A DNA stretch of 64,000 nucleotides from an uncultured Planctomycetaceae bacterium (GTDB taxonomy: Bacteria; Planctomycetota; Phycisphaerae; SM23-33), in assembly GCA_964557575.1 (NCBI GenBank), contig CAZLBC010000001.1:2296-66295 (forward strand), given 5' to 3'. This document shows positions 47,373 to 60,675 of the stretch, one piece after another. The stretch's first letter is position 1. Every line of letters starts with the position of its first letter. The translations under genes were made by a program, and so were the position numbers. The notes beneath the pieces were generated by a model. That model was not told the DNA's origin. It searched no databases and was given only the letters and a program-made list of their open reading frames with translations.

Positions 47373-47403
47373 GGCGATTCATGAGGATAATTTTGAATTT
47401 TAT

Positions 47404-49956: not shown

Positions 49957-50030
49957 TGCCCCCGGTGAGGGTCGAACTCACACTGCCCGAGGCTTAAACT
50001 CGGTCCCTCTGCCAATTGGGGTACGGGGGC
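49957..50030 (-). tRNA. tRNA with Leu anticodon UAA, class I architecture
   Basis: Acceptor GCCCCCG/CGGGGGC, A73. D-arm CCCC-AAUUGGCAGA-GGGA. Anticodon stem CCGAG/CUCGG with loop UUUAAGC. 5-nt variable loop. Confidence 0.5.
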
Positions 50031-50484: not shown

Positions 50485-50520
50485 TGGCGCGCCCGCGAGG
50501 ACTCGAACCCCGAATCTTCC
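50485..50520 (-). other. tRNA 3'-half-like fragment (T-arm + acceptor 3' strand + CCA)
   Basis: CGGGG-UUCGAGU-CCUCG-CGGGCGC-G-CCA with no 5' acceptor partner. Followed upstream by a 16-bp hairpin. Confidence 0.4.
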
Positions 50521-50554
50521 TGCGCCTTTCGTCTTTTCGACCAGTACCTCCTGC

Positions 50555-50591
50555 TTCTAAACAGTAGAAGCAGAGGGTACGAATGCCAAGA
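50555..50591. repeat. 16-bp near-perfect hairpin
   Basis: GTACCTCCTGCTTCTA-AACAG-TAGAAGCAGAGGGTAC between tRNA-like elements. Confidence 0.5.
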
Positions 50592-50597
50592 TAAAAG

Positions 50598-50678
50598 CAG
50601 CGGCGACGGGAGTCGAACCCGCATGTGTCCAGTTACCCTTTCTCCAGTTTAGAAGACTGAGGGGATACACCGCTGATC
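50598..50678 (-). tRNA. tRNA-like gene, anticodon undetermined
   Basis: Good acceptor (AGCGGUG/CGCCGCU) and T-arm (GCGGG-UUCGACU-CCCGU), but the central cloverleaf could not be resolved by eye. Confidence 0.35.
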
Positions 50679-50865
50679 CGTTGTGCTATGAGCGCGTTTA
50701 GTTTTGGCCTGCCGTCGGGTTACGATCCCGACTCCCCAGTCTCGCCTCCAGCTTCAGGATGGCCATCCGTCTGCTATCGGCCCACGTGGAAGGGGCGCGG
50801 TCCAACGATCATCGACAGGTTTTGAAAAACGCGAGTTTTCCGTGCCCGGAAAACGGGAAATTCAA

Positions 50866-50943
50866 TGGTGCCCCCGGTCGGATTCGAACCGACACCTTGA
50901 CCGCTTTTGAAGCGGCTCCCTCTGCCAATTGGGGTACGGGGGC
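50866..50943 (-). tRNA. tRNA with Leu anticodon CAA, class I architecture
   Basis: Same 5' half as 49957..50030. Loop UUCAAAA. A73 and CCA encoded. Confidence 0.5.
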
Positions 50944-51101
50944 GACCTCGGACGCCTTGCGCTCCCTCTTCGACGAAGGACACCTTGGCAGGTCTGCGCC
51001 TTGCCGGTGCCGGGATCGCCGGGGTATTTAGGCCACCGGCCCGTCAGAGTCCCCGACGCAACCCGCGTCGCGAAGTACGAGCCTGTCGTACAGGACCCTG
51101 A

Positions 51102-51126
51102 CGGGCCGAACGGGATTCGAACCCGC
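51102..51126 (-). other. tRNA 3'-half-like fragment
   Basis: GCGGG-UUCGAAU-CCCGU-UCGGCCC-G with no 5' partner. The next tRNA starts 27 nt away. Confidence 0.35.
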
Positions 51127-51152
51127 ATCTTCCGAGCTTCTCTAAAATCAAA

Positions 51153-51227
51153 TGGGACGGGTGGGATTCGAACCCACGGTTTCCTGATTAAAAGTCAGGT
51201 GCATTAGGCCAACTATGCTACCGACCC
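51153..51227 (-). tRNA. tRNA-Lys (anticodon UUU)
   Basis: Stem CCUGA/UCAGG with loop CUUUUAA. D-stem GCAU/AUGC. Confidence 0.6.
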
Positions 51228-51426
51228 GTGTACTTTTTCCACCGAACAACCTCCGTCCACTTGTTTTTCGCCGATGGAGGCTCGACTTCCATAATCTGTT
51301 TCGCACTGCATTCCACACAGTATCGAAATTCAGCCCATCGCTGCCATTTATGAAATCCAATCGAGCAACGAAGAGGACGTTTCAAAAATCCCAGCATCGC
51401 CAAACGCCTCGAAAAAACAGTAAGAG

Positions 51427-51499
51427 CTGCTCCGGCAGGGTTCGAACCTGCAATCTTCTGATTCAGAGTCAGACGCGTTTCCATTTACGCCACGGAGCA
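51427..51499 (-). tRNA. tRNA-Gln (anticodon CUG)
   Basis: U1:A72 as in tRNA-Gln. Stem UCUGA/UCAGA with loop CUCUGAA. Confidence 0.65.
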
Positions 51500-51501
51500 G
51501 A

Positions 51502-51577
51502 TGGTCCTGCCGGAAGGAATCGAACCTTCTAATACCACCTTATCAGAGTGGCCTCTGTACCATTCGAGTTCGACAGG
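51502..51577 (-). tRNA. tRNA-Ile (anticodon GAU)
   Basis: Loop CUGAUAA. CCA encoded. Confidence 0.6.
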
Positions 51578-51582
51578 AAAAA

Positions 51583-51656
51583 TACGTCCGGCGGGATTCG
51601 AACCCGCGACCTTCGGTTTAGGAAACCGATGCTCTATCCGATTGAGCCACGGACGC
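51583..51656 (-). tRNA. tRNA-Arg (anticodon CCU)
   Basis: D-arm GCUC-AAUCGGAUA-GAGC. Loop UUCCUAA. Confidence 0.65.
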
Positions 51657-51657
51657 G

Positions 51658-51891
51658 TCACGATCCGCCGTAGACGGGATTGTACGGCGACGTCGCAGAA
51701 GCATTCATTTCATACACGCTCACGCCGGTCGCGTCCGTCACGACGGTCTCTTCGGTGACGATGGACACGTCGGCGTAATACTGCGAAAGCAGAGAAGTCA
51801 TCTCGGCGGCGACGCCGGTCAAGACGACTTTCTTCTCGGCTCCGGGAAGCGTTGAATCCGGGATGGTAACGACGATTTTGAATCCGGCCAT
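51658..51891 (-). CDS. hypothetical protein
   Basis: GGAGGAG RBS. Abuts tRNA-Arg(CCU). Confidence 0.5.
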   Translation of the reverse strand: MAGFKIVVTIPDSTLPGAEKKVVLTGVAAEMTSLLSQYYADVSIVTEETVVTDATGVSVYEMNASATSPYNPVYGGS

Positions 51892-51924
51892 GACGGTCTC
51901 CTCCGTTGTTTCAACCGAGGCGGA

Positions 51925-52749
51925 TTATAACACGAGCCGGAAACCGTCGCCAACAGACAGGGTGGACACGTACGACATGGCCTTCTCGCGCGCTTCCAAC
52001 AGGCGGACGAACTCTTTTTGAGAGCCGCCCTTGTCGGGGTGCGCGACCTTGGCTTTCTCGCGGAAGTTGCGCATGACGACGCGCTTCGCCGCTTCCATGT
52101 CGTCCGGGAGTTCCACGCGGCTGACGTCGAGGACGTCCCACCACCATTCCGACGGAGGCTTGACAGGTTCCGGTTCCCTCGCGGGATCAGGTTCCGACCG
52201 AGCCGATCCGAGTTTCGGAATGAAGTGGATTACGCTCAACGACTTGTCGGAGTCCGGGTAGCCGAACATGGTCAACGTCGTCTTGAACGTCAACCCGTGG
52301 TGCGCCGCGACGACAAGCGGTTCAATCGCCTGTTCGCGGACTCCGGGATTCGTCCGAAGCTGGACGTACTCCCTGACCTCGGCGAGCGTCGGCTTGTCCG
52401 CCTTCGACTTCAAAAAGACGTCCGCCGCGTGGTAAATCTCCCACGGGGTGGACAGCCAGCTTCCGACTGTTTCCTCCCCGTCACCATCCGGTCTTTGCGG
52501 GAACTCGCCCTGCGGAAAATGCACGTACTCGGCGGTGTACCAAGGTTCGCGTTCGTACACGCCCATTCGGCTCAATTTCATCTCCGGCTTCACGTTATAC
52601 GCGACGACGGGCATCCCCGTGGCGGTGCGTCCCTTAAACACGGTTCGAGTTCCCATGAAGTCCGTCTTCTCGTACGTGTAAACGTAGACGGGGCGCGGTC
52701 TAGGCGGTTCTCGCGTGTAGTCGGTGAACAGGATAAGAAGCTCGTTCAT
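51925..52749 (-). CDS. J-domain (DnaJ-like) protein
   Basis: C-terminal ...KVAHPDKGGSQKEFVRLLEAREKA with an HPD motif. A promoter-like motif lies upstream. Confidence 0.55.
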   Translation of the reverse strand: MNELLILFTDYTREPPRPRPVYVYTYEKTDFMGTRTVFKGRTATGMPVVAYNVKPEMKLSRMGVYEREPWYTAEYVHFPQGEFPQRPDGDGEETVGSWLSTPWEIYHAADVFLKSKADKPTLAEVREYVQLRTNPGVREQAIEPLVVAAHHGLTFKTTLTMFGYPDSDKSLSVIHFIPKLGSARSEPDPAREPEPVKPPSEWWWDVLDVSRVELPDDMEAAKRVVMRNFREKAKVAHPDKGGSQKEFVRLLEAREKAMSYVSTLSVGDGFRLVL

Positions 52750-52765
52750 GGATCAAGAAATAACT

Positions 52766-52785
52766 CGGGAAGTTTCGTGCGTCAA
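52766..52785. promoter_or_regulatory. single promoter-like unit upstream of J-domain gene
   Basis: AACTCGGGAAGTTTCGTGC. Confidence 0.3.
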
Positions 52786-52797
52786 ATGAAAAATAGA

Positions 52798-52872
52798 TGG
52801 TACTCCCGGCAGGAGTCGAACCTGCATCTCGACATTCGGAGTGTCGCGCCTTGTCCGTTGGGCCACGGGAGT
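52798..52872 (-). tRNA. tRNA-Arg (anticodon CCG)
   Basis: Stem CGACA/UGUCG with loop CUCCGAA. CCA encoded. Confidence 0.6.
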
Positions 52873-52877
52873 AAAAA

Positions 52878-52954
52878 TGGCATCCGGCGAGGGACTCGAA
52901 CCCCCAATCGCGACATTCGTAGTGTCGTGCCTTATCCAGTTAGGCCAGCCGGAT
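52878..52954 (-). tRNA. tRNA-Arg (anticodon ACG)
   Basis: D-arm GCCU-AACUGGAUA-AGGC. Loop CUACGAA. Confidence 0.6.
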
Positions 52955-52995
52955 GCATTCGCGGAACGTTATCGGTTGTCAAAGAGCATTCAAAA

Positions 52996-53068
52996 TTACC
53001 CCGGCAGGGTTCGAACCTGCAACCTTCTGATTCAAAGTCAGAAACGCTTCCAGTTGCGCCACGGGGTA
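52996..53068 (-). tRNA. tRNA-Gln (anticodon UUG)
   Basis: U1:A72. Stem UCUGA/UCAGA with loop CUUUGAA. Confidence 0.65.
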
Positions 53069-53076
53069 CCGAATAT

Positions 53077-53152
53077 TGGAGGCCCCAGCCGGAGTCGAAC
53101 CGAGCGATAAACGATTTTGCAAACCGTCCCCTTGCCGCTTGGGTATGGAGCC
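53077..53152 (-). tRNA. tRNA-Cys (anticodon GCA)
   Basis: Loop UUGCAAA. U73 discriminator and CCA. Confidence 0.6.
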
Positions 53153-53158
53153 ATGGAG

Positions 53159-53232
53159 GGTGACCGACGAGGTTCGAACTCGTACTCTTCTGACTCACAA
53201 TCAGGTATGTTGCCAATTACACTACGGTCACC
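53159..53232 (-). tRNA. tRNA-His (anticodon GUG)
   Basis: Extra G-1 pairing with C73. Loop UUGUGAG. Confidence 0.65.
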
Positions 53233-53243
53233 GTCGAATGCTA

Positions 53244-53333
53244 TGGTGCGGGATGAAGGAATTGAACCTTGTCGGCAGCCACCACGATGTTTTGCGCCAG
53301 AGACTTTACAGGCCCCCTCGTGGAACATCCCGC
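53244..53333 (-). tRNA. tRNA-Tyr-like (anticodon GUA), atypical 90-nt structure
   Basis: Perfect acceptor GCGGGAU/AUCCCGC-A-CCA and a T-loop UUCAAUU. Loop CUGUAAA in a GGGGC/GUCUC stem, but no room for a normal D-arm. CCACGA/UCGUGG pairing encloses the anticodon arm. Confidence 0.35.
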
Positions 53334-53349
53334 ACTTGGTTTTCAAAGA

Positions 53350-54291
53350 TCAAGCCTGCGACAGTTTCAGCCAGATCGCGACCATGATTTCGTCGACGAC
53401 TTCGTCAACGGTGCGATCCTTGGTTTCAACAACGCAGTCGGCTTCCGCCGGTTCTTCGTACGGATCGTCGATCCCGGTGAATCCCTTGATCTCACCGGCG
53501 CGGGCTTTCGCGTACAAGCCCTTGACGTCCCGCGCTTCGCACTCTTCGAGACTGGTGGCGACGTGGACCATGAAGAACCGCTTGTCGCCGATCAGGTCTC
53601 TCGCGGACTGCCGGGCTTCCGCATACGGCGAGATCGCCGCCGTGATCGCGATTCCTCCGACGTCGGCGACCGACTTCGCCACGAAGGAAAGCCTTCGAAT
53701 GTTTTCGTCCCGGTCCTCTTTCGAGAATCCGAGTCCCCGGTTCAAGTTCGTCCGGACCTCGTCGCCGTCCAGAACCTTCACCCGGTGTCCGAGTTCGTTC
53801 AACCGGCTTTCAAGAGCCACAGCGATAGTGCTCTTGCCAGAACCTGACAGCCCGGTAAACCAGATGACAAGGCCATTGCCTGCGTCACCACCGGTTGCGA
53901 GGACTTCCGCCGTCGCCATTGGAACCTTTTCCCGCCACGACTCGTCGCCTTCCGCCATGAGCGTTCGGACTTGGGTCGCCGAGATTCCGCCGATCTCCGG
54001 CGGCACGACGTCCTGTAAGTCACGAACTTCATAGCCGACCTTTCGTCCGACGACCACCGCCGCGATGTCCGGGATGGCCATGACGCGAACACAACCGGTT
54101 TTGATTTCGTCGGAGTACACGGCGCGGATCATCGCGATCCGCTCTCCCAGCGTGTACGGGTCTCCGTCGTTGACCGGCGTGTCCCGCACGGCGATCAAGA
54201 CGTTCTCGTCGCGATCCAGAGCTTGCTGGATCAGCCATTTGTGGCCATTGTGGAACGGCTGCCACCGGCCGATGTAAAGCGCGTACTTCAT
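53350..54291 (-). CDS. cysC: bifunctional HxGH-nucleotidyltransferase-like / adenylylsulfate (APS) kinase
   Basis: N-terminal [12 protein letters not shown] ((H/T)xGH nucleotidyltransferase). C-terminal [13 protein letters not shown]...LDGDEVR...AISPY matches the APS kinase core. GAAGGGAG RBS. Confidence 0.75.
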
Positions 54292-54356
54292 TCGTAAACT
54301 CCCTTCAAAAAAATTTGCGCTGAAGAGAGGATAGCAACGCCGCGCTTTTCATTCAA

Positions 54357-54433
54357 TGGTGCTCCGGGTGAGAGTCGAACTCACACTGTACAGTGTCTGA
54401 AACTGCTCCCTCTGCCAATTGGGGTACCGGAGC
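54357..54433 (-). tRNA. tRNA with Leu anticodon CAG, class I architecture
   Basis: Same D-arm and T-arm family as 49957..50030. Stem GCAGU/ACUGU with loop UUCAGAC. A73 and CCA. Confidence 0.5.
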
Positions 54434-54438
54434 GTAGA

Positions 54439-54512
54439 TGTCCACGGTGAGAGTCGAACTCACACTTTCATGATCCTTAGTCATGTCCCTCTGCCAATTG
54501 GGGTACGTGGAC
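54439..54512 (-). tRNA. tRNA with Leu anticodon AAG, class I architecture
   Basis: Stem CAUGA/UCAUG with loop CUAAGGA. A73. Confidence 0.5.
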
Positions 54513-54518
54513 GAATTT

Positions 54519-54594
54519 TGGCTCTCCGGGGTGGACTCGAACCACCAACCTACTGCTTAACAGGCAGTCGCTGCTACCATTGAGCTACCGGAGA
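54519..54594 (-). tRNA. tRNA-Asn (anticodon GUU)
   Basis: Stem ACUGC/GCAGU with loop CUGUUAA. CCA encoded. Confidence 0.6.
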
Positions 54595-54601
54595 ACGTAA
54601 A

Positions 54602-54674
54602 TGGACCGGAGGGGAATCGAACCCCTGACCTTCTACTTGCAAAACAGATGCTCTACCGATTGAGCTACCAGCCC
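54602..54674 (-). tRNA. tRNA-Ala (anticodon UGC)
   Basis: G3:U70 wobble pair. Loop UUUGCAA. Confidence 0.65.
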
Positions 54675-54766
54675 GTGAACGCCGTCGGAAAAGGTTGCCG
54701 GGCGTTATTTGATTGTGCATCATTCACATTGATGTGCGTTTACCAGTTACGCCAACCCGCCGTCAA

Positions 54767-54793
54767 GGTGGCGGGTGAAGGATTCGAACCTCC
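54767..54793 (-). other. tRNA 3'-half-like element in a hairpin
   Basis: GGAGG-UUCGAAU-CCUUC-ACCCGCC-A-CC. The acceptor-like strand pairs with a downstream GGCGGGU instead of a 5' tRNA half. Confidence 0.3.
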
Positions 54794-54838
54794 ATTACTG
54801 AAACGTCTGGACAGGTTCCGACGGCGAATATTGCGTCA

Positions 54839-54910
54839 ACGAGTGCCGGATTCGAACCCAAAACCAACCACCCTCGTACACGCGGGTTCGTCGCGCTAGG
54901 ACTCGTTGAC
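54839..54910 (-). pseudogene. degenerate tRNA-like sequence
   Basis: Perfect 7-bp acceptor AACGAGU/ACUCGUU and UUCGAAU loop, but a poor T-stem and no D-arm. Confidence 0.3.
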
Positions 54911-54936
54911 TTGATTTTCAAAGATCGAAAAATTTA

Positions 54937-55011
54937 TGGTGGCTCCCCGCCGAGTCGAACGGCGACTTCCGCGTTTTCAGCGCGGCGTACACTCCAGTAT
55001 ACGAGAGAGCC
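54937..55011 (-). tRNA. tRNA-Phe (anticodon GAA)
   Basis: Stem CCGCG/CGCGG with loop CUGAAAA. CCA encoded. Confidence 0.6.
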
Positions 55012-55013
55012 AA

Positions 55014-55050
55014 TTAAAAAACCCCTGTCCGGAGGGCCGAACAGGGGTTT
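55014..55050. terminator. rho-independent terminator (strong on minus strand)
   Basis: CCCCTGT-CCGGAGGGCCGA-ACAGGGG flanked by an A-run and a T-run. Precedes tRNA-Phe on the minus strand. Confidence 0.55.
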
Positions 55051-55246
55051 CGTGTGTGCAACCGGTGTTCAGCCCTACGTGGTGCCCTCCAAATTGAAGG
55101 CATAAATCGCCGCGCACGACAGGAGGTTTCTGTCGTTGTGGCGATGTATCTGTTGGCTGAATCGTTTGGTGAACATCATCATGTTTCCGTTCGCGCCTTT
55201 CGGCGTTCCGTTCGTATCACGATGGAAATGTACAAGGGTCGACGCG

Positions 55247-55272
55247 CGGCGTCAAGAAACTTCCCAATATTT
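55247..55272. promoter_or_regulatory. same unit in inverted orientation within palindrome CAAGAAA...TTTCTTG
   Basis: CAAGAAACTTCCCAATATTTTTCTTG. Confidence 0.3.
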
Positions 55273-55281
55273 TTCTTGTTT

Positions 55282-55527
55282 TTATTCCGACGTCTTCCAC
55301 GTCCACGTTACCGCTTCCTCCGGCTCTTCCGGACCGCGATCCGGAATAATCACGATCCGGCTCGTCAACGAAACATCGCAAACCGCGTCGGATTCCGCGA
55401 TTTCCCGGATCAACTCCCGAATCGCGGTCATGTGCTTCGTGATCTTCGATCGGTACTCCGCGAGTTCCGGACGGATGTCGTTCACGAGTTCTTCCTTCGG
55501 AACAAGCACGTTTTTAACGGTTTTCAT
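55282..55527 (-). CDS. hypothetical protein
   Basis: GAGGTGA RBS. Confidence 0.5.
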   Translation of the reverse strand: MKTVKNVLVPKEELVNDIRPELAEYRSKITKHMTAIRELIREIAESDAVCDVSLTSRIVIIPDRGPEEPEEAVTWTWKTSE

Positions 55528-55530
55528 GCG

Positions 55531-56136
55531 TCACCTCGCGTTATGGTTCGATTGCACCTGCCGGATTCCAAACCCGTCGCTGTGCATAACGATTTGCGAT
55601 GCGGGATTGTTCGTCTCGGAACCTGCGTCAAGCCGAACGCGGTACGCTTCGCCGAAAGACTCGTCCAGCCGTTCGACGATAACGCCCGGCGTGCGCGCGC
55701 TGAAAACATCGGTGATCACCCCGTCGCCGACCCGGTAGTCCACGCCAATGTCTCGCAAGTTGAAAACGGCCTGCAAACCGCCGAGCGAAGACATGCTGTC
55801 CAGTACGCGCGGGTCGTCCGGGTTCCTGTCCACATCGAACGACCGCTCTTCGCCGTCGCCGTAAAACGCGGACACCTTGCGGCCGACGACGTCAACCACC
55901 GCGCCGAACAGCGCGCCGATAACGTGATCGCTGGCGATCCACAACACGGGGTCGCCTACGCGGAAATCCTTCGTGAGAAGCGTTGGGGGCGCGACAGGAC
56001 GTCGAACGCGCTGCAGTACGGCATCTGCGGACGGGGGAAGGTTAAACGCCGCCAGAGAAGCGTACAAACGGCTTCCGCGCGGAACGCCGTTGTCCACGAC
56101 CTTCCCGCGAACGTGAAACTTCATGTTGGATTCCAC
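55531..56136 (-). CDS. hypothetical protein
   Basis: GTG start after GAGGAG. Confidence 0.5.
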   Translation of the reverse strand: MESNMKFHVRGKVVDNGVPRGSRLYASLAAFNLPPSADAVLQRVRRPVAPPTLLTKDFRVGDPVLWIASDHVIGALFGAVVDVVGRKVSAFYGDGEERSFDVDRNPDDPRVLDSMSSLGGLQAVFNLRDIGVDYRVGDGVITDVFSARTPGVIVERLDESFGEAYRVRLDAGSETNNPASQIVMHSDGFGIRQVQSNHNAR

Positions 56137-56600
56137 TGCACGATCTCCTCGACGTCAACATCCTCGAAATCCGTCAAGGGGATCGCGCGGCCCTCCTTGC
56201 GAAGTCCGAGTACCGTCTGGTCTAACAACTGAAGTATCGGCGGACTGACAAACACGAGGCACTTCCGGAACTCGTCTTCCGCGACGTCGGCGATCTTCCT
56301 AAGCGGGGTTAAACGGATCGCCTGCCGGAACATGTGAAGGGAGGCGCGCATGTAGACTTCCGTGTCGAGGCTGTCGCCCAACCGGTAACCTTCAACGCGG
56401 CGATGCGGCGCGCCGCGCTCCACGGGACCCGCGTTCTTGGCTAAGTCGCGCTCAACCCGCAAGCGGCGCGACACGAACTCCAGCGAATCATAGACAACGA
56501 TCCCGATCGGAAACGCGTCGGGGTTGATGACAACCGGGGCGATCACCGTGTTTCCCTCGGCGACGTACGCGTAAACCCATTTTCCCTCAAATCGGGGCGT
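56121..56600 (-). CDS. C-terminal portion of a protein that may be joined to the upstream ORF by a +1 frameshift
   Basis: The protein-like frame begins with no start codon at ...FEGKWVYAYVAEG. It is reached from ORF 56587..56901 by a +1 shift at AUU UGA G. Confidence 0.3.
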   Translation of the reverse strand, partial: TPRFEGKWVYAYVAEGNTVIAPVVINPDAFPIGIVVYDSLEFVSRRLRVERDLAKNAGPVERGAPHRRVEGYRLGDSLDTEVYMRASLHMFRQAIRLTPLRKIADVAEDEFRKCLVFVSPPILQLLDQTVLGLRKEGRAIPLTDFEDVDVEEIVQWNPT

Positions 56601-56901
56601 CAGCACAACTGGATTCCTCTCCGAACCGTCCCTTGCGAAGCACGCGAAGAAGCGGGTACACTTTCGGGTTCTCTTCCGCAAGCGCGGCGAAGAAACGACA
56701 CCGCTTGACAATGAAGTCGGTGCGCCCCACACCGCCGACCACGCAAGCGACACGCGGCGACGGTTCGTCTTCCATGTAAACGCGCGCGACCTCGGCTTCC
56801 GGGATGATCTTCGAAAGCATCACGAAGGCTTCGTTGAACTCCCGGCGGAGGCCGTTCTCGTTAACCCAGTTCAGGACTTCCGGTTCCACGTTCTTTTTCA
56901 T
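56587..56901 (-). CDS. hypothetical protein (N-terminal part of possible frameshifted gene)
   Basis: GGAGAG RBS. Ends at a TGA that overlaps the continuing frame. Confidence 0.45.
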   Translation of the reverse strand: MKKNVEPEVLNWVNENGLRREFNEAFVMLSKIIPEAEVARVYMEDEPSPRVACVVGGVGRTDFIVKRCRFFAALAEENPKVYPLLRVLRKGRFGEESSCADAPI

Positions 56902-57094
56902 TATCGCTCTCCGTGCCGCGTTCCGCGTCGAGAGCAGTATCCGAGATCAGTTTCGAATAGTCAAATTCGTCCCCGGTCGGGCTTTCAACCGTTGAAAGCA
57001 TGACCGACGCAAGCTGATGTCCGATGCTCGATCTCCAAAGCCATGTGGACCTTTTCCGGGGAAAACCCCCGAATTTCATTGAACGAAATCATCC
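56861..57094 (-). CDS. small protein whose two halves lie in different frames (possible +1 frameshift)
   Basis: ATG at 57094 sits 7 nt after AAGGAG and gives MISFNEIRGFSPEKVHMALEIEHRTSACVGHAFNG, then TGA. The +1 frame continues ESPTGDEFDYSKLISD... to 56861. Confidence 0.3.
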
Positions 57095-57171
57095 GGTTTC
57101 TCCTTGTAAAAGAAGCCCGCGAGGGGAACGCGGGCTGCTGACGGGGTGATCGACGGATTTTGGGGATACCG

Positions 57172-57486
57172 TCAATCGTTGGGTTTCGGGTGGATTCGGG
57201 CCAGAATGTCGACTTGAGAAATCAGCATGTAATCCTCGTCGTCGACTTTGATTTCGGTTCCCCCGTACATCGCGATGATGACGCGGTCTCCGCTTTTGAG
57301 GGGGCACTCCCCGTCCCCGTCCTCGACGGGAACATTGATCACGGTCGCCTTGTTCGTGGCCTGCTGCGCCGTGTGCGGCAGTATAATGCCGCCTTTCGAG
57401 ACGTCTTCCGGCTTGTCTTTTTGAACGAGAATACGATCGTTCAACGGTTCAAGTCGGCACGTCTTCTTTTTCGCTTCGGACGTCAT
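57172..57486 (-). CDS. groES: co-chaperonin GroES
   Basis: GGAAGGAG RBS. LEPLNDRILVQK...GGIILPHTAQ...GDRVIIAMYGGTEIKVDDEDYMLISQVDILA matches the Cpn10 family. Confidence 0.8.
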   Translation of the reverse strand: MTSEAKKKTCRLEPLNDRILVQKDKPEDVSKGGIILPHTAQQATNKATVINVPVEDGDGECPLKSGDRVIIAMYGGTEIKVDDEDYMLISQVDILARIHPKPND

Positions 57487-57533
57487 TCCGGACTCCTTCC
57501 TGAAAAAATGGTGGATCGTGCTAAAAAATTTTT

Positions 57534-57640
57534 GACCCTGACAGGATTCGAACCTGCACTGCATTAGTTTCTTGCACCACTTCACAGCCCGGCTCTTGGT
57601 GCAACACACCGGGGCGTCTGCCATTTCCGCCACAGGATCA
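57534..57640 (-). other. tRNA-like element (about 107 nt) with unresolved fold
   Basis: 3' end GCAGG-UUCGAAU-CCUGU-CAGGGUC-A pairs with GAUCCUG 107 nt upstream. D-loop AAAUGGCAGA resembles the Leu-type family. Confidence 0.25.
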
Positions 57641-57648
57641 AATTCTAA

Positions 57649-57670
57649 ACACACACACACACACACACAC
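57649..57670. repeat. (AC)11 dinucleotide microsatellite
   Basis: ACACACACACACACACACACAC in the non-coding region between the tRNA-like element and the tmRNA. Confidence 0.8.
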
Positions 57671-57852
57671 GACTTTGGCGAACCGCAGCGTAACGCATCC
57701 GCACCGACCGCCATTGACCCTACTCCGGTAACGCGGCTCAGTCCTGACCAAGCCCCTTCGGGTCCGCGCCGACCTGATGGATGCCGAACTATAGCGTCAC
57801 GTGCCGGACTTACAACATCACGTACTCGACGATCTCAAAGCCGTGAATATTT

Positions 57853-58315
57853 TGGTGGAGGCGAGGGGAATCGAACCCCTGTGCTGAATCTCTTCCGTAT
57901 CAGCGTCCCCATGTTCACCCTAGTCCTGCCTCACTCCAAGGGTACGGTGAGGGGCTTGTTGTGACACGTTTCCAGTGCCGCACACGGGTCGTGCGCAAAT
58001 GAGGAGTGCGTCTTTCCGCGTCGTCCCTCGTATGTACCTCGAACGCCGGGACTTACTTGTCAGCCGTCTCTCCGCACAGGGTTGTCCCCGTGGCCCCCAT
58101 GTTTCGCTCGCCGCTACTTAGGGTGCGCTGTCCGTTCTTGTAGGTGTCCCCATGACGTTACCAGAACAATCTCACGTCATGGAGTGCGGCTAGGCCGCGT
58201 TTGCTAAAGCAGGTTCAGCAATTAGTTGTTGAGCGCAGTTTTTAACGTGGACTGACGTTCATACCACGACATGCAGCCGATACTTCCAACGACCAGTCGA
58301 AACCAAGTCGCCCCC
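57853..58315 (-). ncRNA. ssrA: tmRNA (SsrA-like)
   Basis: 5' end GGGGGCGACUUGGUUUCGACUGG pairs with 3' end AGGGG-UUCGAUU-CCCCU-CGCCUCC-A-CCA. The UUCGAC 5' motif matches bacterial tmRNAs. Internal candidate tag reading frame ...AEPALANAA-UAG. No protein-coding ORF over 800 nt. Confidence 0.55.
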
Positions 58316-58352
58316 GATTTTCAAAGATCACGCTGAAACGGGTAATTCCGTT

Positions 58353-58850
58353 TCAGCGGCGCAAAATACTGTCGAAAATCCCGGAGAATCCGCTGACGAA
58401 AACCGGGCAATTACAAAATTCGATCCCGGCGGCTTCGATCCGCTGCTCGATCTCAGCCTGCAACACGAGCCAAGCGATCGTCCCGATCTTGTCCGCCGTA
58501 GAACGCCCGACGGGCTTCTCCGAAAATGTTCCGTCATCGTCGGGAACCATCACCGAGACGCGGAATCCGGACGGTTTGACTGGTACCGTGACCGCGTCTT
58601 CGGAATACTTGGCCGCGCTTTCGTCAGCCGAGTAGGTCTCCGTGACGTAGATTTCGCGTACTCCCTTGAATTTGACCTTGATCAGTTCGTCCCCCGCGTC
58701 CTCGTGCGAGACGGCCTCTTGATCCGGCATGTCGACCTCTGCGGCCGTAAACATGTCGGAAACCAAATCGACGAGTTCAAACAAACGCTTGACGCGCTCT
58801 TCCTCGGTCCGCTCGACACGGAGCTTCGCTTCAACCTGAATCTTCGGCAT
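58353..58850 (-). CDS. hypothetical protein
   Basis: GAGGAGG RBS. Lies downstream of the tmRNA. Confidence 0.55.
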   Translation of the reverse strand: MPKIQVEAKLRVERTEEERVKRLFELVDLVSDMFTAAEVDMPDQEAVSHEDAGDELIKVKFKGVREIYVTETYSADESAAKYSEDAVTVPVKPSGFRVSVMVPDDDGTFSEKPVGRSTADKIGTIAWLVLQAEIEQRIEAAGIEFCNCPVFVSGFSGIFDSILRR

Positions 58851-58918
58851 CTTTTTTTTCCTCCTCGATTACCGATTCCTCTACACCCGTATATATCGGC
58901 AAACGAGGGCAAAAAACA

Positions 58919-59386
58919 TTAGTCTTTCTTCGACTTTTTCTTCTTTTTTCGTTTCTTGCGGTTCAGCGGCGACGGCTCGTCCTGCGGAAGGTACCCGCTT
59001 CCGGGTTGTCCCATCGCAGCGGAGGTCTGCGAGAATCCGCCGACATTCCCCGACGTCATCGCTTCGCCGACGGTGCCCTTGTCGGCATTGTCCCGGACTG
59101 TCCGCGCGGCTTTCAGCAGTCCGGCCTTGACCTCGTCGAACGGGATCACCGTGGAGTAGTAATACGGGTCCTCCGTCAGGTGATCCAGCGTGATTTCCAA
59201 CGCCTCTCCGGCGTCGTCGGTGTGTTCCATTTCAACAGCAATGCCCGCGACAATCTGGCAGTAGCAAAAATCTCTGACACGTGCGTCGTCCCCGACGCCG
59301 CCTTCGACCTCATTACCCGCCATGCTCGGGTCGTCATCGGATTCCCGGAGCATCCGGTGCATCACGTCTCGACTTGTACGCTTCAT
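58919..59386 (-). CDS. hypothetical protein with poly-Lys C-terminus
   Basis: ACGGAGGG RBS at Met19. Confidence 0.5.
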   Translation of the reverse strand: MKRTSRDVMHRMLRESDDDPSMAGNEVEGGVGDDARVRDFCYCQIVAGIAVEMEHTDDAGEALEITLDHLTEDPYYYSTVIPFDEVKAGLLKAARTVRDNADKGTVGEAMTSGNVGGFSQTSAAMGQPGSGYLPQDEPSPLNRKKRKKKKKSKKD

Positions 59387-59444
59387 AAAAAAGCCCTCCG
59401 TTTCGCAACCAAGTATGCGACGGAGGGCCTCACGTGTCAAATAA

Positions 59445-59515
59445 TGCGTCGGACGGGGATCGAACCCGTTACCACGTTTTTAGAGAACGCCGCCTATCCA
59501 TTCGGCTTCCGACGC
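59445..59515 (-). tRNA. tRNA with anticodon CUA (amber-suppressor-like)
   Basis: Acceptor GCGUCGG/CCGACGC, A73. Anticodon stem GCGUU/AACGU with loop CUCUAAA (U33, anticodon CUA, purine 37). T-arm ACGGG-UUCGAUC-CCCGU. Confidence 0.5.
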
Positions 59516-59523
59516 AATTCGAC

Positions 59524-60216
59524 TTAAACGTCCGAGATGCGGCCGGTCTTGGGATCGACGTCGACGACAAACGGGGAAACGGAAGGTCCGTACCGGTTCA
59601 CCGGGACCGACACCTCGGCTCGATTGTGCATCCGAAGGTCTTCCGGACGGTGAATCTCGATCACCGCTGTCGCCATCGCCGCCGTCGCCCACGGGGCTTC
59701 CCCGGGACCTTCCCTCGAAGACTCCTTTGACGATCCGCTGTCGAAATCCCCGTTGCGTCGCAACTGGGTACTGGTGAACACCGGACACCCCAGCGCGGCC
59801 CCGACGCGCTGCAGCGCGCAAAAAGCCAAAGACGTGCTGATACGCGGAATCGGGTCCACGATCAGCATGTCGGTCTGGAAAGCCGCACGCGAGACCACGC
59901 CCAACACGTCGAAGAAAACCAAATCGGGCGACAACGTCCGGTACGTGTCGGAAAACAACGATCCGTCAACCTCGTTCGGGAGAAAGTCGCTGTACTTGAG
60001 CATGACCTCGCTCGGCGACAATTCGAAGTCGGAGGTCATGTGGATCACGTTGAACCCGTTCAACGCGGCGTGCGCTCCGATGGAGCAAAGCATCGAAGTC
60101 TTCCCGTCCTTCGGGCGCGCCGCGACCACGACCACGTCACCCGCGTGAAACCCTTTGTCCGGGTGACTCGCGCGAACGGCGTTGTTGATTTTTGAAAAGG
60201 GAGTTTCAATCGACAT
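59524..60216 (-). CDS. DnaB-like / RecA-fold ATPase domain protein
   Basis: VVVAARPKDGKTS Walker A and LIVDPIP Walker B-like. Only the C-terminal helicase domain is present. Confidence 0.5.
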   Translation of the reverse strand: MSIETPFSKINNAVRASHPDKGFHAGDVVVVAARPKDGKTSMLCSIGAHAALNGFNVIHMTSDFELSPSEVMLKYSDFLPNEVDGSLFSDTYRTLSPDLVFFDVLGVVSRAAFQTDMLIVDPIPRISTSLAFCALQRVGAALGCPVFTSTQLRRNGDFDSGSSKESSREGPGEAPWATAAMATAVIEIHRPEDLRMHNRAEVSVPVNRYGPSVSPFVVDVDPKTGRISDV

Positions 60217-60286
60217 GATTCGGTCCTCGATTAGAAAAAGGTGAAAAGAAAAGCCGAACCCTGTCCAAAGGTTCGGCCGGTTTCAG

Positions 60287-60652
60287 TCATTCGCGTTCGG
60301 AGCAATACTGCATGGTCGTCATCGCGAACTGCTGCGACCAACCCCATTCGTCCATGACGAACTGGTTGAACTCCTCGGTCGTCAGTTCGACTTCGTCGCC
60401 GACTTGAAGCTCGAACATCCGAATGAACTTGTTGTACTCCTTCTCGAACGTCCGTGGTGCCTGTTTGGCGAACGGGACGAGAGGGTCTCCGTTGCTGACG
60501 CGTTCGATCTGCTCCTGCAGGTGCTTGACGACCTGCTTCTGGTAGATTTCCTGCGCCTCTTCGGCGTTCTTGATGTGCGTCTCCCGATTCTTCCGGAGAA
60601 TCTCCAGAATCTCGGCCTTGGGAAAACGACGTACCGTCGCGTTGCGGTTCAT
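60287..60652 (-). CDS. hypothetical protein
   Basis: ORF 60287..61042 trimmed to Met131 behind GAGGAGG. Confidence 0.5.
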   Translation of the reverse strand: MNRNATVRRFPKAEILEILRKNRETHIKNAEEAQEIYQKQVVKHLQEQIERVSNGDPLVPFAKQAPRTFEKEYNKFIRMFELQVGDEVELTTEEFNQFVMDEWGWSQQFAMTTMQYCSERE

Positions 60653-60675
60653 GTCGTGTACCTCCTCAAAGTGGT

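What the first reader, a model, noticed from the sequence alone, without database searches (positions are those of the whole stretch)
50485..57640. Several orphan tRNA 3'-halves and degenerate tRNA-like sequences
Four elements (50485..50520, 51102..51126, 54767..54793 and 57534..57640) have a good T-arm plus acceptor 3' strand, two with CCA, but no matching 5' half at the right distance. Two more degenerate tRNA-like stretches lie at 54839..54910 and about 50718..50745. One fragment is followed by a 16-bp hairpin, and another folds back on a local complement. They could be relics of tRNA-gene turnover, integrase att cores copied from host tRNAs, or minihelix-like RNAs.
Basis: seen in the sequence. 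Interest (0 to 1): 0.5.

Follow-up and report, generated by a model that had tools for sequence, protein, structure and literature searches.

The report
Phage Y-RNA-like tRNA mimics
The "orphan tRNA halves" in this phage's tRNA gene cluster are mostly not debris: at least one, probably more, are tRNA-shaped non-coding RNAs of the Y-RNA kind, the partners of a Ro60-type RNA-quality-control protein that the phage encodes in a highly divergent form.

Summary
The T-arm + acceptor-3'-strand motifs are real, but they lie on the minus strand, like all 23 tRNAs and the tmRNA.

- **Element C (54826..54680):** T-arm, 7-bp acceptor stem closed by a loop, D-arm, anticodon-like hairpin, all enclosed by an 11-bp terminal stem. 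This is the YrlA (bacterial Y RNA) plan. A covariance model built only from other phages scores it 58 bits (E~3e-11).
- **Association:** the same RNA core occurs in 20 of 31 phage loci with this protein and 0 of 30 controls. In bacteria it sits 130-400 nt upstream of the gene.
- **Element B:** a long-closed-stem variant, with an analog in the nearest relative.
- **Element D:** a complete tRNA-like RNA (Rfam tRNA 31.9 bits, cut-off 29) with a module hairpin instead of an anticodon arm.
- **Element A and the two degenerate stretches:** unresolved.

The att-core reading fails for all pieces, and the relic reading fails for C and probably B. Rfam's YrlA cut-off is not met. I rate this a new variant of a known kind.

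The parts
54680..54826 (-). Element C: complete YrlA-like Y RNA candidate. Parts: terminal stem CGCCGTCGGAA (54826..54816) with TTCCGACGGCG (54690..54680); T-arm 54793..54777; closed 7-bp acceptor hairpin ACCCGCC (54776..54770), loop ACCTTGAC (54769..54762), GGCGGGT (54761..54755); D-arm 54752..54736; anticodon-arm-like hairpin CATCA-AUGUGAA-UGAUG 54734..54718.
   Evidence: Joined halves give a perfect cloverleaf at ARAGORN's default threshold. Rfam YrlA core aligns in the same order, 17.7 bits. Model R1, trained without the window, gives 58.2 bits, E 2.9e-11. The MFE fold forms the terminal stem. Own-flank duplex is -38.7 kcal/mol, second best of its 23 candidate partners. Coordinates.
50947..51142 (-). 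Element B: long-closed-stem variant filling the whole gap between tRNA-Lys and tRNA-Leu. Parts: 5' motif GAGAAGCUC 51142..51134; outer stem CUCGGA 51136..51131 with UCCGAG 50952..50947; T-arm 51126..51110; 12-bp closed stem 51109..51098 with 51047..51036 around a 50-nt insert with two hairpins; reduced D-like arm 51033..51018.
   Evidence: Permuted-layout detector hit. Cloverleaf after joining is weak, with almost no D-stem. MFE -100 kcal/mol shows the closed stem and outer stem. R1 gives 29.6 bits, E 4e-4, which is within the range of tRNA-tRNA junction false positives. An analog with a 13-bp closed stem lies in L037 17658..17742, 37.7 bits.
57533..57639 (-). Element D: regular-order tRNA-like RNA. 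Parts: acceptor GATCCTG (57639..57633) with CAGGGTC (57540..57534), discriminator A, no CCA; D-arm 57630..57614; T-arm 57557..57541. The anticodon/variable region is replaced by a 5-bp stem (57613..57609 with 57592..57588) interleaved with an 8-bp helix UUGCACCA/UGGUGCAA (57604..57597 with 57579..57572).
   Evidence: Rfam tRNA 31.9 bits, above the cut-off of 29, full model length, with a 16-nt 'anticodon loop' and a 29-nt variable insert. ARAGORN -i calls it with an implausible fold. Helix coordinates. No counterpart in L037 14264..14513.
50485..50577 (-). Element A: 13-bp hairpin (50577..50565 with 50559..50547), then T-arm 50512..50496, acceptor-3'-type strand CGGGCGC 50495..50489, G, CCA 50487..50485. 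It abuts tRNA-Met (50481). Unresolved.
   Evidence: No downstream complement exists. No upstream 7/7 partner lies within 230 nt. 0 of 2016 joins with the 50695 piece yield a tRNA call. Local fold. Whole 219-nt region has z = -3.4.
54835..54910 (-). Degenerate tRNA-like hairpin immediately 5' of element C: 10-bp terminal stem GTCAACGAGT (54910..54901) with ACTCGTTGAC (54844..54835), and a T-loop-like GGGTTCGAATCC with a poor stem. It is preceded by the TCTTTGAAAA motif (54924..54915). Possibly a second, YrlB-like RNA of the same unit.
   Evidence: Sequence and fold. Motif statistics. Rfam tRNA only 17.4 bits across this region.
50715..50731 (-). T-arm-like hairpin with a non-consensus loop (TCGGG-ATCGTAA-CCCGA). 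This is the finder's 'about 50718..50745'. No supported tRNA-like fold.
   Evidence: Called only at ARAGORN's relaxed threshold, which also gives many obvious false positives. Coordinates.

Best explanation
The tRNA array of this ~198-kb T4-like phage is interspersed with tRNA-shaped non-coding RNAs of the Y-RNA kind.

Element C, and probably B, have the YrlA layout. The 5' and 3' ends pair into a terminal stem. Between them sit a T-arm, an 'acceptor' stem closed by a loop, a D-arm and, in C, an anticodon-arm-like hairpin.

Inferred mechanism. The RNAs are transcribed with the tRNA array and released by the tRNA-processing enzymes that cut the neighbouring tRNAs. Their terminal stem binds the phage's divergent Ro60-like ring protein (TROVE-fold + vWA), which is encoded at the head of the same array. 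The tRNA-like domain then acts as the adaptor or gate that recruits a tRNA-recognising or exonucleolytic partner, as Y RNA tethers Ro60 to PNPase in Deinococcus and in Thermus phage phiLo. The likely role is RNA (perhaps tRNA) quality control or repair during infection.

Element D is most simply the same idea in regular tRNA order: open acceptor, with a closed module hairpin in place of the anticodon arm. Element A is unresolved.

Shown here: the anatomy; membership of C in a conserved RNA class; co-occurrence of that class with the Ro60-like gene; and the protein's fold.

Inferred, not shown: expression, processing, binding and function.

The confidence of 0.68 is for the statement as a whole. 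For 'C is a YrlA-type RNA cognate to the Ro60-like gene' alone I would give about 0.8, for B about 0.55, for D about 0.4.
For: Anatomy:
- The layout T-arm -> closed 7-bp hairpin -> D-arm is found in the window only at C and B. It gives 0 hits in 628 kb of reversed control sequence.
- Un-permuted C gives a perfect cloverleaf.
- An 11-bp terminal stem encloses C.
- Rfam YrlA aligns its T / acceptor stem-loop / D core to C in the same order.

Class membership:
- Model R1 was built from 22 elements of other phages, with the window excluded. It scores C at 58.2 bits, E 2.9e-11, inside the range of its training members.
- Terminal-stem pairing was not selected by my detector. Own-flank duplex energy averages -32.1 versus -23.4 kcal/mol for swapped flanks. 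The cognate flank is the single best partner in 9 of 23 cases.

Partner protein:
- L036 is contiguous with the window (100% over 8070 bp). It encodes P0121 (547 aa) followed by an ARPP-1/2 protein.
- The AF2 model has pLDDT 91.
- Foldseek: the top six PDB hits are all Ro60/TROVE.

Association:
- R1 hits of 45 bits or more occur in 20 of 31 viral loci with this protein and in 0 of 30 control phage loci (Fisher 2e-8).
- All are on the gene's strand and mostly 0.2-4 kb away.
- In cellular genomes the best hits lie 130-400 nt upstream of the gene on the same strand. Two of them get full-length sub-threshold Rfam YrlA matches of 40.4 and 35.1 bits.
- The nearest relative, L037, keeps the synteny and has a C-type and a B-type element side by side.

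Literature:
- Phage Ro60 with adjacent Y-like RNAs that bind it and host PNPase: PMC12135203.
- ROT/TROVE with a tRNA-like partner in jumbo phages: PMC7824862.
Against: - Rfam's curated YrlA cut-off (69 bits) is not met by C (17.7 bits, core only). It is not met by any element in seven phage loci either.
- The proposed Rsr-contact motif GNCGAAN0-1G is absent from C. It is too common in this genome to be informative.
- The Ro60 assignment is by predicted fold only. No TROVE signal appears in any of 40 family members, or with the family profile against PDB sequences.
- In this phage the RNAs lie 8-15 kb from the gene, not adjacent to it.
- The paired-ness counted is circular, because my detector required those pairs.
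- R1 also scores ordinary tRNA-tRNA junctions at 20-40 bits, so B's 29.6 bits proves nothing by itself.
- D has no homolog in the nearest relative.
- A fits no model.
- There are no expression or binding data.
Confidence: 0.68

Rival explanations
1. Relics of tRNA-gene turnover. The elements are decaying pseudo-tRNAs and fragments left by duplication, deletion and recombination inside a fast-evolving phage tRNA array. For C specifically, two tandem copies would each have lost an outer half. They would have no function.
For: - A, 54910..54835 and 50731..50715 resolve into no consistent fold.
- The insert carrying C is absent between tRNA-Phe and tRNA-Ala in relative L037, and D has no counterpart there. 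This shows gain and loss within the array.
- Chen et al. warn that dimeric tRNAs mimic YrlA in searches (PMC4201824).
Against: - C has every stem intact: 7/7 acceptor, 4/4 D, 5/5 anticodon-like and 5/5 T, plus an 11-bp terminal stem that no tRNA dimer would supply.
- The same plan, with different sequences in every stem, recurs next to one protein family in dozens of phages and bacteria.
- No piece is a recent copy of an intact tRNA.
- The neighbouring D-arm-less RNA and the Tyr-like RNA are also conserved, with compensatory changes.
Confidence: 0.12
2. True circularly permuted (or two-piece) tRNA genes. The precursor would be cut in the acceptor loop by RNase P and 3'-trimmed, with CCA encoded or added. 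This would give a tRNA with a free acceptor end. It would then work either as two base-paired pieces or after ligation of the outer ends by an RNA ligase, and would be aminoacylated and used in translation or in tRNA replacement.
For: - Joined C is called tRNA-His(GUG) at ARAGORN's default threshold.
- 9 of 22 related elements carry N-CCA exactly after the 7-bp strand (P ~2e-11). 10 of 23 have true anticodon-arm geometry, with R37 in 10/10 and U33 in 7/10.
- The M. smegmatis YrlA with a 7-bp stem is cleaved by RNase P and receives CCA in vivo (PMC4201824).
- Regular-order RNAs with open acceptor + NCCA and the same inserted module exist in related loci.
Against: - The outer ends form a plain 11-bp helix, not a bulge-helix-bulge splice motif. 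Bacteria have no tRNA splicing endonuclease (established knowledge).
- C duplicates an anticodon already served by a normal tRNA-His gene, and it lacks the bacterial His identity pair G-1:C73, having A73 instead.
- The anticodon-like loops are not conserved, and several lack U33.
- L035's element has a 6-bp stem closed by a 6-nt loop, with no room for a discriminator or CCA.
- No RNA ligase was seen in the 64-kb window, but most of the genome is unseen.
Confidence: 0.08
3. Ro60-independent tRNA decoys. The tRNA-shaped RNAs would act on their own as sponges or decoys for host tRNA-targeting defence nucleases or tRNA-modifying enzymes, protecting the phage's tRNA supply. The Ro60-like gene would merely be a neighbour in the same translation and repair island.
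For: - The elements sit inside a large tRNA array with a tmRNA and a suppressor tRNA.
- The anticodon-like loops are diverse but tRNA-like.
- In this phage they are 8-15 kb from the Ro60-like gene.
- The D-arm-less and Tyr-like mimics show that this lineage makes several kinds of tRNA-like RNA.
Against: - The tight positional coupling to the Ro60-like gene in bacteria (130-400 nt upstream, same strand) and in most phage loci is what is expected of a cognate RNP partner.
- The conserved terminal stem is the Ro-binding feature of known Y RNAs (PMC4201824, PMC12135203) and is unnecessary for a decoy.
Confidence: 0.1
4. Integrase attachment-site cores: tRNA 3' fragments carried by, or left behind by, an integrative element.
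For: Only the generic fact that att sites often overlap tRNA 3' ends. A ends in CCA.
Against: - There are no direct repeats above ~65% identity between any orphan piece and an intact tRNA 3' end.
- No integrase was found among the ORFs examined.
- B and C continue into matching 5' strands, which att cores do not.
Confidence: 0.02

Closest known systems
YrlA (Y RNA-like A; Rfam RF02553), the tRNA-mimicking Y RNA bound by bacterial Ro60/Rsr (Chen et al. 2014, PMC4201824; structure preprint 10.1101/312249)
   Same: - Order of modules: terminal stem, T-arm, acceptor-like stem closed by a loop, D-arm.
- tRNA-like conserved nucleotides in the T and D loops.
- Encoded on the same strand near a Ro60-type gene.
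- Often several copies per locus.
- A 7-bp acceptor stem as in the M. smegmatis YrlA, which is processed by RNase P and CCA-added.
- Also found in phages.
   Different: - Below Rfam's gathering score everywhere tested (17.7-40.4 vs 69 bits).
- No GNCGAAN0-1G motif in C. The phage set instead shows a GRGRACU...UUACAG signature in the 5' strand (seen by eye, with only TTACAG picked up by the k-mer test).
- A subset, including C, has an extra anticodon-arm-like hairpin, so the ends leave from the variable-arm position.
- Many have N-CCA encoded in the loop.
- The partner protein has no detectable TROVE sequence signature.
- In this phage the RNAs are embedded in a tRNA array 8-15 kb from the gene.
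Thermus phage phiLo Ro60 with Yrl1/Yrl2 (PMC12135203; PDB 9KOP, 9L5Y)
   Same: - A phage-encoded Ro60 ring protein with Y-RNA-like genes on the same strand.
- The proposed function (an RNP that can engage host PNPase) is the template for the mechanism inferred here.
   Different: - The phiLo Yrls are described as stem-bulge-stem RNAs with a CGAA motif, not as tRNA mimics.
- phiLo Ro60 is recognisable as TROVE by sequence.
- Its Yrls lie directly upstream of the gene.
Circularly permuted tRNA genes (Cyanidioschyzon merolae and other algae, prasinovirus BpV1, Thermofilum; Maruyama et al. 2010 as cited in PMC3673656)
   Same: The 3' half (T-arm + acceptor 3' strand) lies upstream of the 5' half (acceptor 5' strand + D-arm + anticodon arm), joined by a short linker. 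Joining the halves in silico restores a cloverleaf.
   Different: - Those genes rely on a bulge-helix-bulge motif and the archaeal/eukaryal splicing endonuclease to circularise the precursor. Here the ends form a plain helix in a bacterial-type phage.
- The anticodon is redundant and the identity elements are wrong for His.
tmRNA, including two-piece permuted tmRNA
   Same: A tRNA-like domain combined with extra structured modules. One standard tmRNA is encoded 214 nt upstream of D in the same array (57853..58315, 88.9 bits).
   Different: C, B and D have no mRNA-like reading frame and no pseudoknot series. The Rfam tmRNA and permuted-tmRNA models do not match them.

Membership tests
YrlA / Rfam RF02553 | Module order T-arm -> closed acceptor-like stem-loop -> D-arm, with tRNA-like loop nucleotides | tested here: met
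   C: (Rfam aligns model positions 30-81 in this order). R1 gives 58.2 bits. B: order met but the D-arm is degenerate.
YrlA / Rfam RF02553 | 5' and 3' ends pair into a terminal stem (the Ro-binding module) | tested here: met
   C: 11-bp helix 54826..54816 with 54690..54680. Class-wide own-versus-swapped flank energies.
YrlA / Rfam RF02553 | GNCGAAN0-1G motif near the 5' end (proposed Rsr contact) | tested here: not met
   Absent from C and from 21 of 23 related elements. The motif occurs 226 times in the window, so hits near A and B carry no weight.
YrlA / Rfam RF02553 | Score at or above Rfam's curated gathering threshold (69 bits) | tested here: not met
   C 17.7 bits. No YrlA hit at the gathering score in seven phage loci. 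Best relatives reach 40.4, 40.4 and 35.1 bits.
YrlA / Rfam RF02553 | Encoded next to a Ro60/Rsr gene | tested here: inconclusive
   A Ro60-fold gene is on the same molecule and strand, but 11 kb from C. In most related phage loci the distance is 0.2-4 kb. In bacteria it is 130-400 nt.
YrlA / Rfam RF02553 | Bound by Ro60 in vivo; carries tRNA-type modifications (pseudouridine, dihydrouridine) | not testable with these tools
   Needs immunoprecipitation and modification mapping.
Ro60 / TROVE protein family (for P0121) | TROVE domain recognisable by sequence (Pfam PF05731) | tested here: not met
   No TROVE hit in P0121 or any of 40 homologs. The family profile finds no Ro60 among PDB sequences.
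Ro60 / TROVE protein family (for P0121) | HEAT-repeat ring followed by a vWA domain (Ro60 fold) | tested here: met
Canonical tRNA (Rfam RF00005) | Full cloverleaf in linear order, scoring above the gathering threshold (29 bits) | tested here: met
   D only: 31.9 bits, full length. A, B and C are not met (best 17.4 bits across C's region; A 0 of 2016 joins).
Canonical tRNA (Rfam RF00005) | 5-bp anticodon stem with a 7-nt loop presenting an anticodon | tested here: not met
   D has a 16-nt loop and a 29-nt insert that can pair with it. ARAGORN's intron solution is not credible.
Circularly permuted tRNA genes | 3' half upstream of 5' half; joining restores a cloverleaf | tested here: met
   C. 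B only weakly.
Circularly permuted tRNA genes | Bulge-helix-bulge motif formed by the precursor termini for endonuclease/ligase circularisation | tested here: not met
   The termini of C form an uninterrupted 11-bp helix.
Integrase att core in a tRNA gene | Near-identical direct repeat of a tRNA 3' segment, plus an integrase nearby | tested here: not met
   Best repeat identity is ~65%. No integrase among the ORFs scanned.

The most novel reading that the evidence does not exclude
The closed-acceptor elements with a 7-bp stem, an encoded N-CCA and a genuine anticodon arm may be processed into tRNA-like molecules with a free CCA end. RNase P and 3' trimming in the acceptor loop would do this, as shown for M. 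smegmatis YrlA. The products would be two-piece or re-ligated and could be aminoacylated. That would make them the first permuted or split tRNAs of the bacterial world, carried on a Ro60-type scaffold. One possible use would be as a reserve or repair template when host anticodon nucleases attack the tRNA pool. More modestly, a large unannotated clade of Ro60-fold proteins (no TROVE signature, always paired with an ARPP protein and often with big tRNA arrays) and its cognate tRNA-mimic RNAs would exist across phages, Planctomycetota and Myxococcota.
Probability: 0.1. Interest if true: 0.85.

Novelty: new variant of a known kind. Interest (0 to 1): 0.58.

Why it matters
Ro60-Y RNA particles are an old puzzle: an autoantigen in humans and an RNA-quality-control machine in bacteria. 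The job of the bacterial Y RNA's tRNA-like domain is still unknown.

This locus points to a sizeable set of Ro60-fold proteins that sequence models miss. Each appears to have a recognisable tRNA-mimic RNA partner, and they are physically embedded in phage and bacterial tRNA arrays beside a tmRNA, a suppressor tRNA and other atypical tRNA-like RNAs. That context ties the Y RNA's tRNA mimicry to tRNA supply, surveillance or repair during phage infection, which makes the link directly testable.

There is also a practical consequence. Annotation pipelines will report such elements as nothing, as pseudo-tRNAs, or as tRNA fragments.

Tried and rejected
- **Intron-containing tRNAs.** ARAGORN -i finds only D at the default threshold. 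At the relaxed threshold it produces about 25 obvious false positives across coding DNA, so its calls over A, 50706..50784 and 54767..54872 were discarded.
- **A as a split tRNA.** Joining A to the 5' piece at 50695 gave 0 of 2016 tRNA calls.
- **Close relatives via the APS-kinase fusion gene.** The 33 IMG/VR loci (at most 56% identity) have no tRNA array nearby and served only as controls.
- **GroES as an anchor.** No relatives found.
- **Characterised phages.** Only generic tRNA similarity.
- **Exact D pattern in IMG/VR.** Nothing found.
- **GNCGAAN0-1G as evidence for Ro binding.** Too frequent in this genome to count.
- **Longest ungapped flank helix as a terminal-stem statistic.** Not discriminating (10.1 vs 8.7 bp). 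Replaced by duplex energies.
- **Covariation counts on my own detector's hits.** 100% paired by construction, so I treat them only as showing sequence diversity.
- **Sequence-level Ro60 assignment.** Failed.
- **Burroughs & Aravind 2016 RNA-repair survey.** Could not be retrieved. What I recall of it (Rot/TROVE and Band-7 scaffolds with cognate ncRNAs) is from memory and is not used as evidence.
- **TROVE gene inside the window.** None among the large ORFs scanned. The gene lies just outside the window.

Full report
**Setting**

The window is part of a 198,081-bp contig. It comes from a T4-like myovirus, with a T4-type portal, an RNR carrying an intein, homing endonucleases and GroES. From 47.4 kb to beyond 64 kb it carries a tRNA array entirely on the minus strand. 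ARAGORN tRNAs. There is also a 463-nt tmRNA at 57853..58315 that ARAGORN misses and Rfam finds at 88.9 bits. Because everything is on the minus strand, the finder's 'T-arm + acceptor 3' strand' strings are reverse complements. Any conventional 5' half would lie at higher coordinates.

**The observation**

All four elements have a consensus T-arm followed by seven nucleotides in the acceptor-3' position. Orphan T-arms are enriched. Six lie on one strand in 7.5 kb, against about one per 14 kb in 565 kb of other phage DNA. L034, a separate Logan assembly of run SRR7048227, matches the window at 4319 of 4320 bases across 55929..51610, so the layout of element C is not a one-off misassembly. The details need correction as follows.
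- D has an exact 5' partner and is a complete tRNA-like molecule by Rfam's own cut-off (31.9 vs 29 bits).
- B and C have their 5' strands downstream.
- Only A carries a full CCA.

**Element C**

Read 5'->3' on the minus strand, the parts are as follows.
- T-arm GGAGG-UUCGAAU-CCUUC.
- ACCCGCC, an 8-nt loop (ACCUUGAC), and the exact complement GGCGGGU.
- UG, then a D-arm GCGU-AACUGGUAA-ACGC.
- A, then a hairpin CAUCA-AUGUGAA-UGAUG.

Joining the downstream piece to the upstream piece gives a textbook cloverleaf. ARAGORN calls it tRNA-His(GUG) at its default threshold over many junction choices. A systematic detector for this layout finds only C and B in the window and nothing in 628 kb of reversed control sequence.

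At first sight this looks like a circularly permuted tRNA gene. Such genes are known from algae, one prasinovirus and an archaeon (PMC3673656) but, as far as my searches went, not from phages of bacteria. Three observations pointed elsewhere.
1. C duplicates the anticodon of a normal tRNA-His gene. It has A73 and no G-1, whereas the normal gene has the bacterial G-1:C73.
2. The sequences flanking C form a perfect 11-bp helix, CGCCGUCGGAA (54826..54816) with UUCCGACGGCG (54690..54680). This is not a bulge-helix-bulge motif.
3. A pattern search found an unrelated 113-kb viral contig (L035) with the same D-arm and layout. There the 'acceptor' is a 6-bp stem closed by six nucleotides, which leaves no room for a discriminator or CCA.

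**The YrlA connection**

A tRNA-like domain with a closed acceptor end, the order T-arm, acceptor stem-loop, D-arm, and paired 5'/3' ends defines bacterial YrlA Y RNAs (PMC4201824; 10.1101/312249).
- Rfam's YrlA model aligns its core (positions 30-81) to C in that order. The score is only 17.7 bits against a cut-off of 69.
- L035 has a full-length YrlA match (40.4 bits, E 1e-5 to 2e-7) 400 nt from its C-like element.

**The partner protein**

L036 is a second contig from the same run. It is identical to window 55931..64000 over 8070 bp and extends 3.5 kb further. It encodes P0121 (547 aa) and then an ARPP-1/ARPP-2 protein, on the array's strand at the head of the array.
- By sequence, P0121 has only a weak vWA hit. 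No member of its family shows a TROVE signature.
- Its AlphaFold model is confident (pLDDT 91, pTM 0.87). It shows about 355 helical residues followed by an alpha/beta domain.
- Foldseek's six best PDB matches are all Ro60/TROVE structures aligned over the full length.

So the phage encodes a Ro60-fold protein that sequence models miss.

**Association between RNA and protein**

The family alignment of P0121 retrieved 31 viral loci.
- My detector found orphan 'T-arm -> closed 7-bp hairpin -> D-arm' elements in about 20 of them. All are on the gene's strand, and L064 has five in tandem. It found none in the 33 kinase-anchored control loci, and one hit in 1.3 Mb of reversed sequence.
- I built a covariance model (R1) from 22 of these elements, excluding the window. 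It scores C at 58.2 bits (E 2.9e-11), within the range of its training members.
- Hits of 45 bits or more occur in 20 of 31 Ro60-like loci and 0 of 30 control loci (Fisher 2e-8).
- As Chen et al. warned, the model also picks up junctions between adjacent ordinary tRNAs at 20-40 bits, so scores in that range are not evidence.
- The pair counts are circular because the detector demanded those pairs. The terminal stem was not selected for. Each element's own flanks pair far better than swapped flanks (-32.1 vs -23.4 kcal/mol), and the cognate flank is the best partner in 9 of 23 cases.
- In 50 cellular-genome loci carrying the protein (Planctomycetota, Myxococcota and others), the best R1 hits sit 130-400 nt upstream of the gene on the same strand.
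- Two of those elements receive full-length but sub-threshold Rfam YrlA matches (40.4 and 35.1 bits). No element in seven phage loci reaches Rfam's cut-off.
- The nearest relative of the window's phage (L037, 56% identity in P0121) keeps the order Ro60-like, ARPP, tRNAs, tmRNA, GroES. It has two such RNAs side by side after tRNA-Ala.

**Variant features**

- 10 of 23 elements, including C, have a 5-bp/7-nt hairpin exactly one nucleotide after the D-arm, which is true anticodon-arm geometry. R37 is present in 10/10 and U33 in 7/10. In these elements the RNA ends leave from the variable-arm position.
- 9 of 22 have N-CCA exactly after the 7-bp strand (P ~2e-11). This recalls the M. smegmatis YrlA, which is cut by RNase P and receives CCA (PMC4201824).
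- The published GNCGAAN0-1G motif is absent from C and is uninformative in this genome. The 5' strands show a GRGRACU...UUACAG signature. I saw this by eye; the k-mer test recovers only TTACAG, at 8 of 23 elements and ~22-fold enrichment.

**Element B**

B has a T-arm and then a 12-bp stem (51109..51098 with 51047..51036) closed over a 50-nt insert with two hairpins. A reduced D-like arm follows. An outer stem (51136..51131 with 50952..50947) makes the RNA fill the whole gap between tRNA-Lys and tRNA-Leu. R1 gives 29.6 bits, which is not discriminating. L037, however, has an analog with a 13-bp closed stem, a reduced D-arm and a GGGGAACU 5' motif (37.7 bits). I regard B as a probable long-stem variant.

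**Element D**

D has a perfect 7-bp acceptor stem formed by its own ends, plus a D-arm and a T-arm. In place of the anticodon arm it has a 5-bp stem with a 16-nt loop, and that loop can form an 8-bp helix with the 29-nt 'variable' region. It encodes no CCA. It lies 43 nt upstream of the GroES start codon and has no counterpart in L037. Related loci contain 120-145-nt RNAs in regular order with an open acceptor, N-CCA and an inserted module carrying the same 5'-strand signature. D is most simply the regular-order counterpart of C. That is an inference.

**Element A and the degenerate stretches**

A (T-arm, CGGGCGC, G, CCA, then three nucleotides and tRNA-Met) has no downstream complement and no exact upstream partner within 230 nt. 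Joining it to the tRNA-5'-like piece at 50695 never yields a tRNA (0 of 2016). It is preceded by a long bulged hairpin. I could not assign it. 54910..54835 and 50731..50715 are weak. 54910..54835 is preceded by the same TCTTTGAAAA motif that precedes the tmRNA and the Tyr-like RNA, and that precedes the Y-like RNAs in L037. It may therefore belong to one unit with C.

- Att cores. No orphan piece is more than about 65% identical to an intact tRNA's 3' end, and no integrase was found.
- Relics. Excluded for C and unlikely for B. Still possible for A and the degenerate stretches.
- Minihelix-like RNAs. The nearest to the truth in spirit.

**What is known**

Phage-encoded Ro60 homologs with adjacent Y-like RNAs are on record for mycobacteriophages, CcrColossus, Bacillus phage G and Thermus phage phiLo (PMC4201824, PMC12135203). 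A ROT/TROVE protein 'with a tRNA-like partner' is noted in some jumbo phages (PMC7824862). The kind is therefore known. Four things appear not to be.
1. A Ro60-fold family invisible to TROVE models and paired with ARPP.
2. Its RNA partners falling below Rfam's YrlA cut-off.
3. The variant with a full anticodon arm and encoded CCA.
4. The embedding in tRNA arrays.

**Verdict**

I rate this a new variant of a known kind and of moderate-to-good interest. Expression, processing, binding and function are all inferred and need the experiments listed.

Noticed in passing
window 57853..58315 (-): A phage-encoded tmRNA (Rfam 88.9 bits, 463 nt with a ~190-nt insertion relative to the model). ARAGORN misses it in the window but finds its counterpart in relative L037 (tag AEPALAPAA*).
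   Followed up: partly
window 53244..53333 (-); L037 18120..18207: An atypical tRNA-Tyr(GUA)-like RNA with encoded CCA and no normal D-arm. A CCACGA...UCGUGG long-range stem encloses the anticodon arm. It is conserved in L037 at 76% identity with compensatory acceptor changes (GCGGGAU/AUCCCGC vs GGGCGUG/CACGCCC). ARAGORN misses it; Rfam gives tRNA-Sec 25.7 bits here and tRNA 29.7 bits in L037. It may be the phage's only tRNA-Tyr.
   Followed up: partly
window 50598..50674 (-); L063 18965..19043: A D-arm-less tRNA-like RNA with an 8-bp terminal stem, an anticodon-like loop CUUCUAA and a conserved block GAAAGGNUAACNGGACACAU before the T-arm. It has a clear homolog in an unrelated Ro60-like phage locus, with compensatory changes in the terminal stem. 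The L063 copy ends in ACCA. Function unknown.
   Followed up: partly
window 53340..53349, 54915..54924, 58318..58327 (-); L037 13837, 17429, 18107: The motif TCTTTGAAAW occurs exactly three times in the window (0.33 expected; 0 of 100 shuffles reach 3). Each copy is a few nt 5' of a non-canonical RNA: the Tyr-like RNA, the 54910 element + C, and the tmRNA. L037 shows the same placement. It is a candidate promoter or processing signal specific to these RNAs.
   Followed up: partly
window 59444..59516 (-); L037 12323..12395 and 6572..6646; L063 18225..18300: A suppressor-type tRNA with anticodon CUA (ARAGORN labels it 'Pyl') is conserved in relatives. L037 also has a tRNA with anticodon UUA. This may indicate stop-codon recoding or suppression in this phage lineage.
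   Followed up: no
window 49957..50030, 50866..50943, 54357..54433, 54439..54512 (-): All four tRNA-Leu genes are 74-78 nt with a short variable region and share the D-arm ACCCCAAUUGGCAGAGGGA. Bacterial-type tRNA-Leu normally has a long variable arm.
   Followed up: no
L035 1269..1378 and 1776..1829, upstream of L035:1965-4550: In an unrelated 113-kb viral contig, two YrlA-like RNAs lie immediately upstream of an 861-aa protein with Major Vault Protein shoulder/repeat and SPFH/Band-7 domains. This is a vault-like protein next to Y-like RNAs.
   Followed up: partly
L087 (Minicystis rosea), L106, L107, L076, L079, L096: In cellular genomes the divergent Ro60-like gene is flanked by very dense tRNA arrays, with dozens of tRNAs in 5-10 kb. 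'tRNA array + Ro60-like + YrlA-like RNA' looks like a mobile module shared by bacteria and phages.
   Followed up: partly
L040 ~6850..6984, L041 ~8686..8804, L059 ~4923..5047 and ~5739..5872, L065 ~8466..8608 and ~9760..9895: RNAs of 120-145 nt in regular tRNA order (open 7-bp acceptor, N-CCA, T-arm, anticodon-like hairpin) with a ~60-nt inserted stem that carries the same GRRACU...UUACAG signature as the closed-acceptor RNAs. L059 5848 shares C's T-arm and acceptor strand almost exactly and lies ~85 nt upstream of that phage's Ro60-like gene.
   Followed up: partly
window 47403..47491 (-): A probable fourth tRNA-Ser (GCU) abutting tRNA-Ser(CGA). It is called only at ARAGORN's relaxed threshold, but it is 76% identical over its 3' part to the neighbouring Ser genes (repeat family D10).
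   Followed up: no
window 57647..57672: A (CA)n/(GT)n dinucleotide microsatellite of about 12 units between the tmRNA and element D. It sits at the point where the relative L037 lacks D.
   Followed up: no
window 8556..9929 (-); L036:1636-2667 (window-equivalent ~65860..64829): RNA-repair-flavoured proteins: a 457-aa ORF with a weak 'Swiss Army Knife' 2H phosphoesterase domain, and the ARPP-1/ARPP-2 protein immediately downstream of the Ro60-like gene (a pairing conserved in L037).
   Followed up: no
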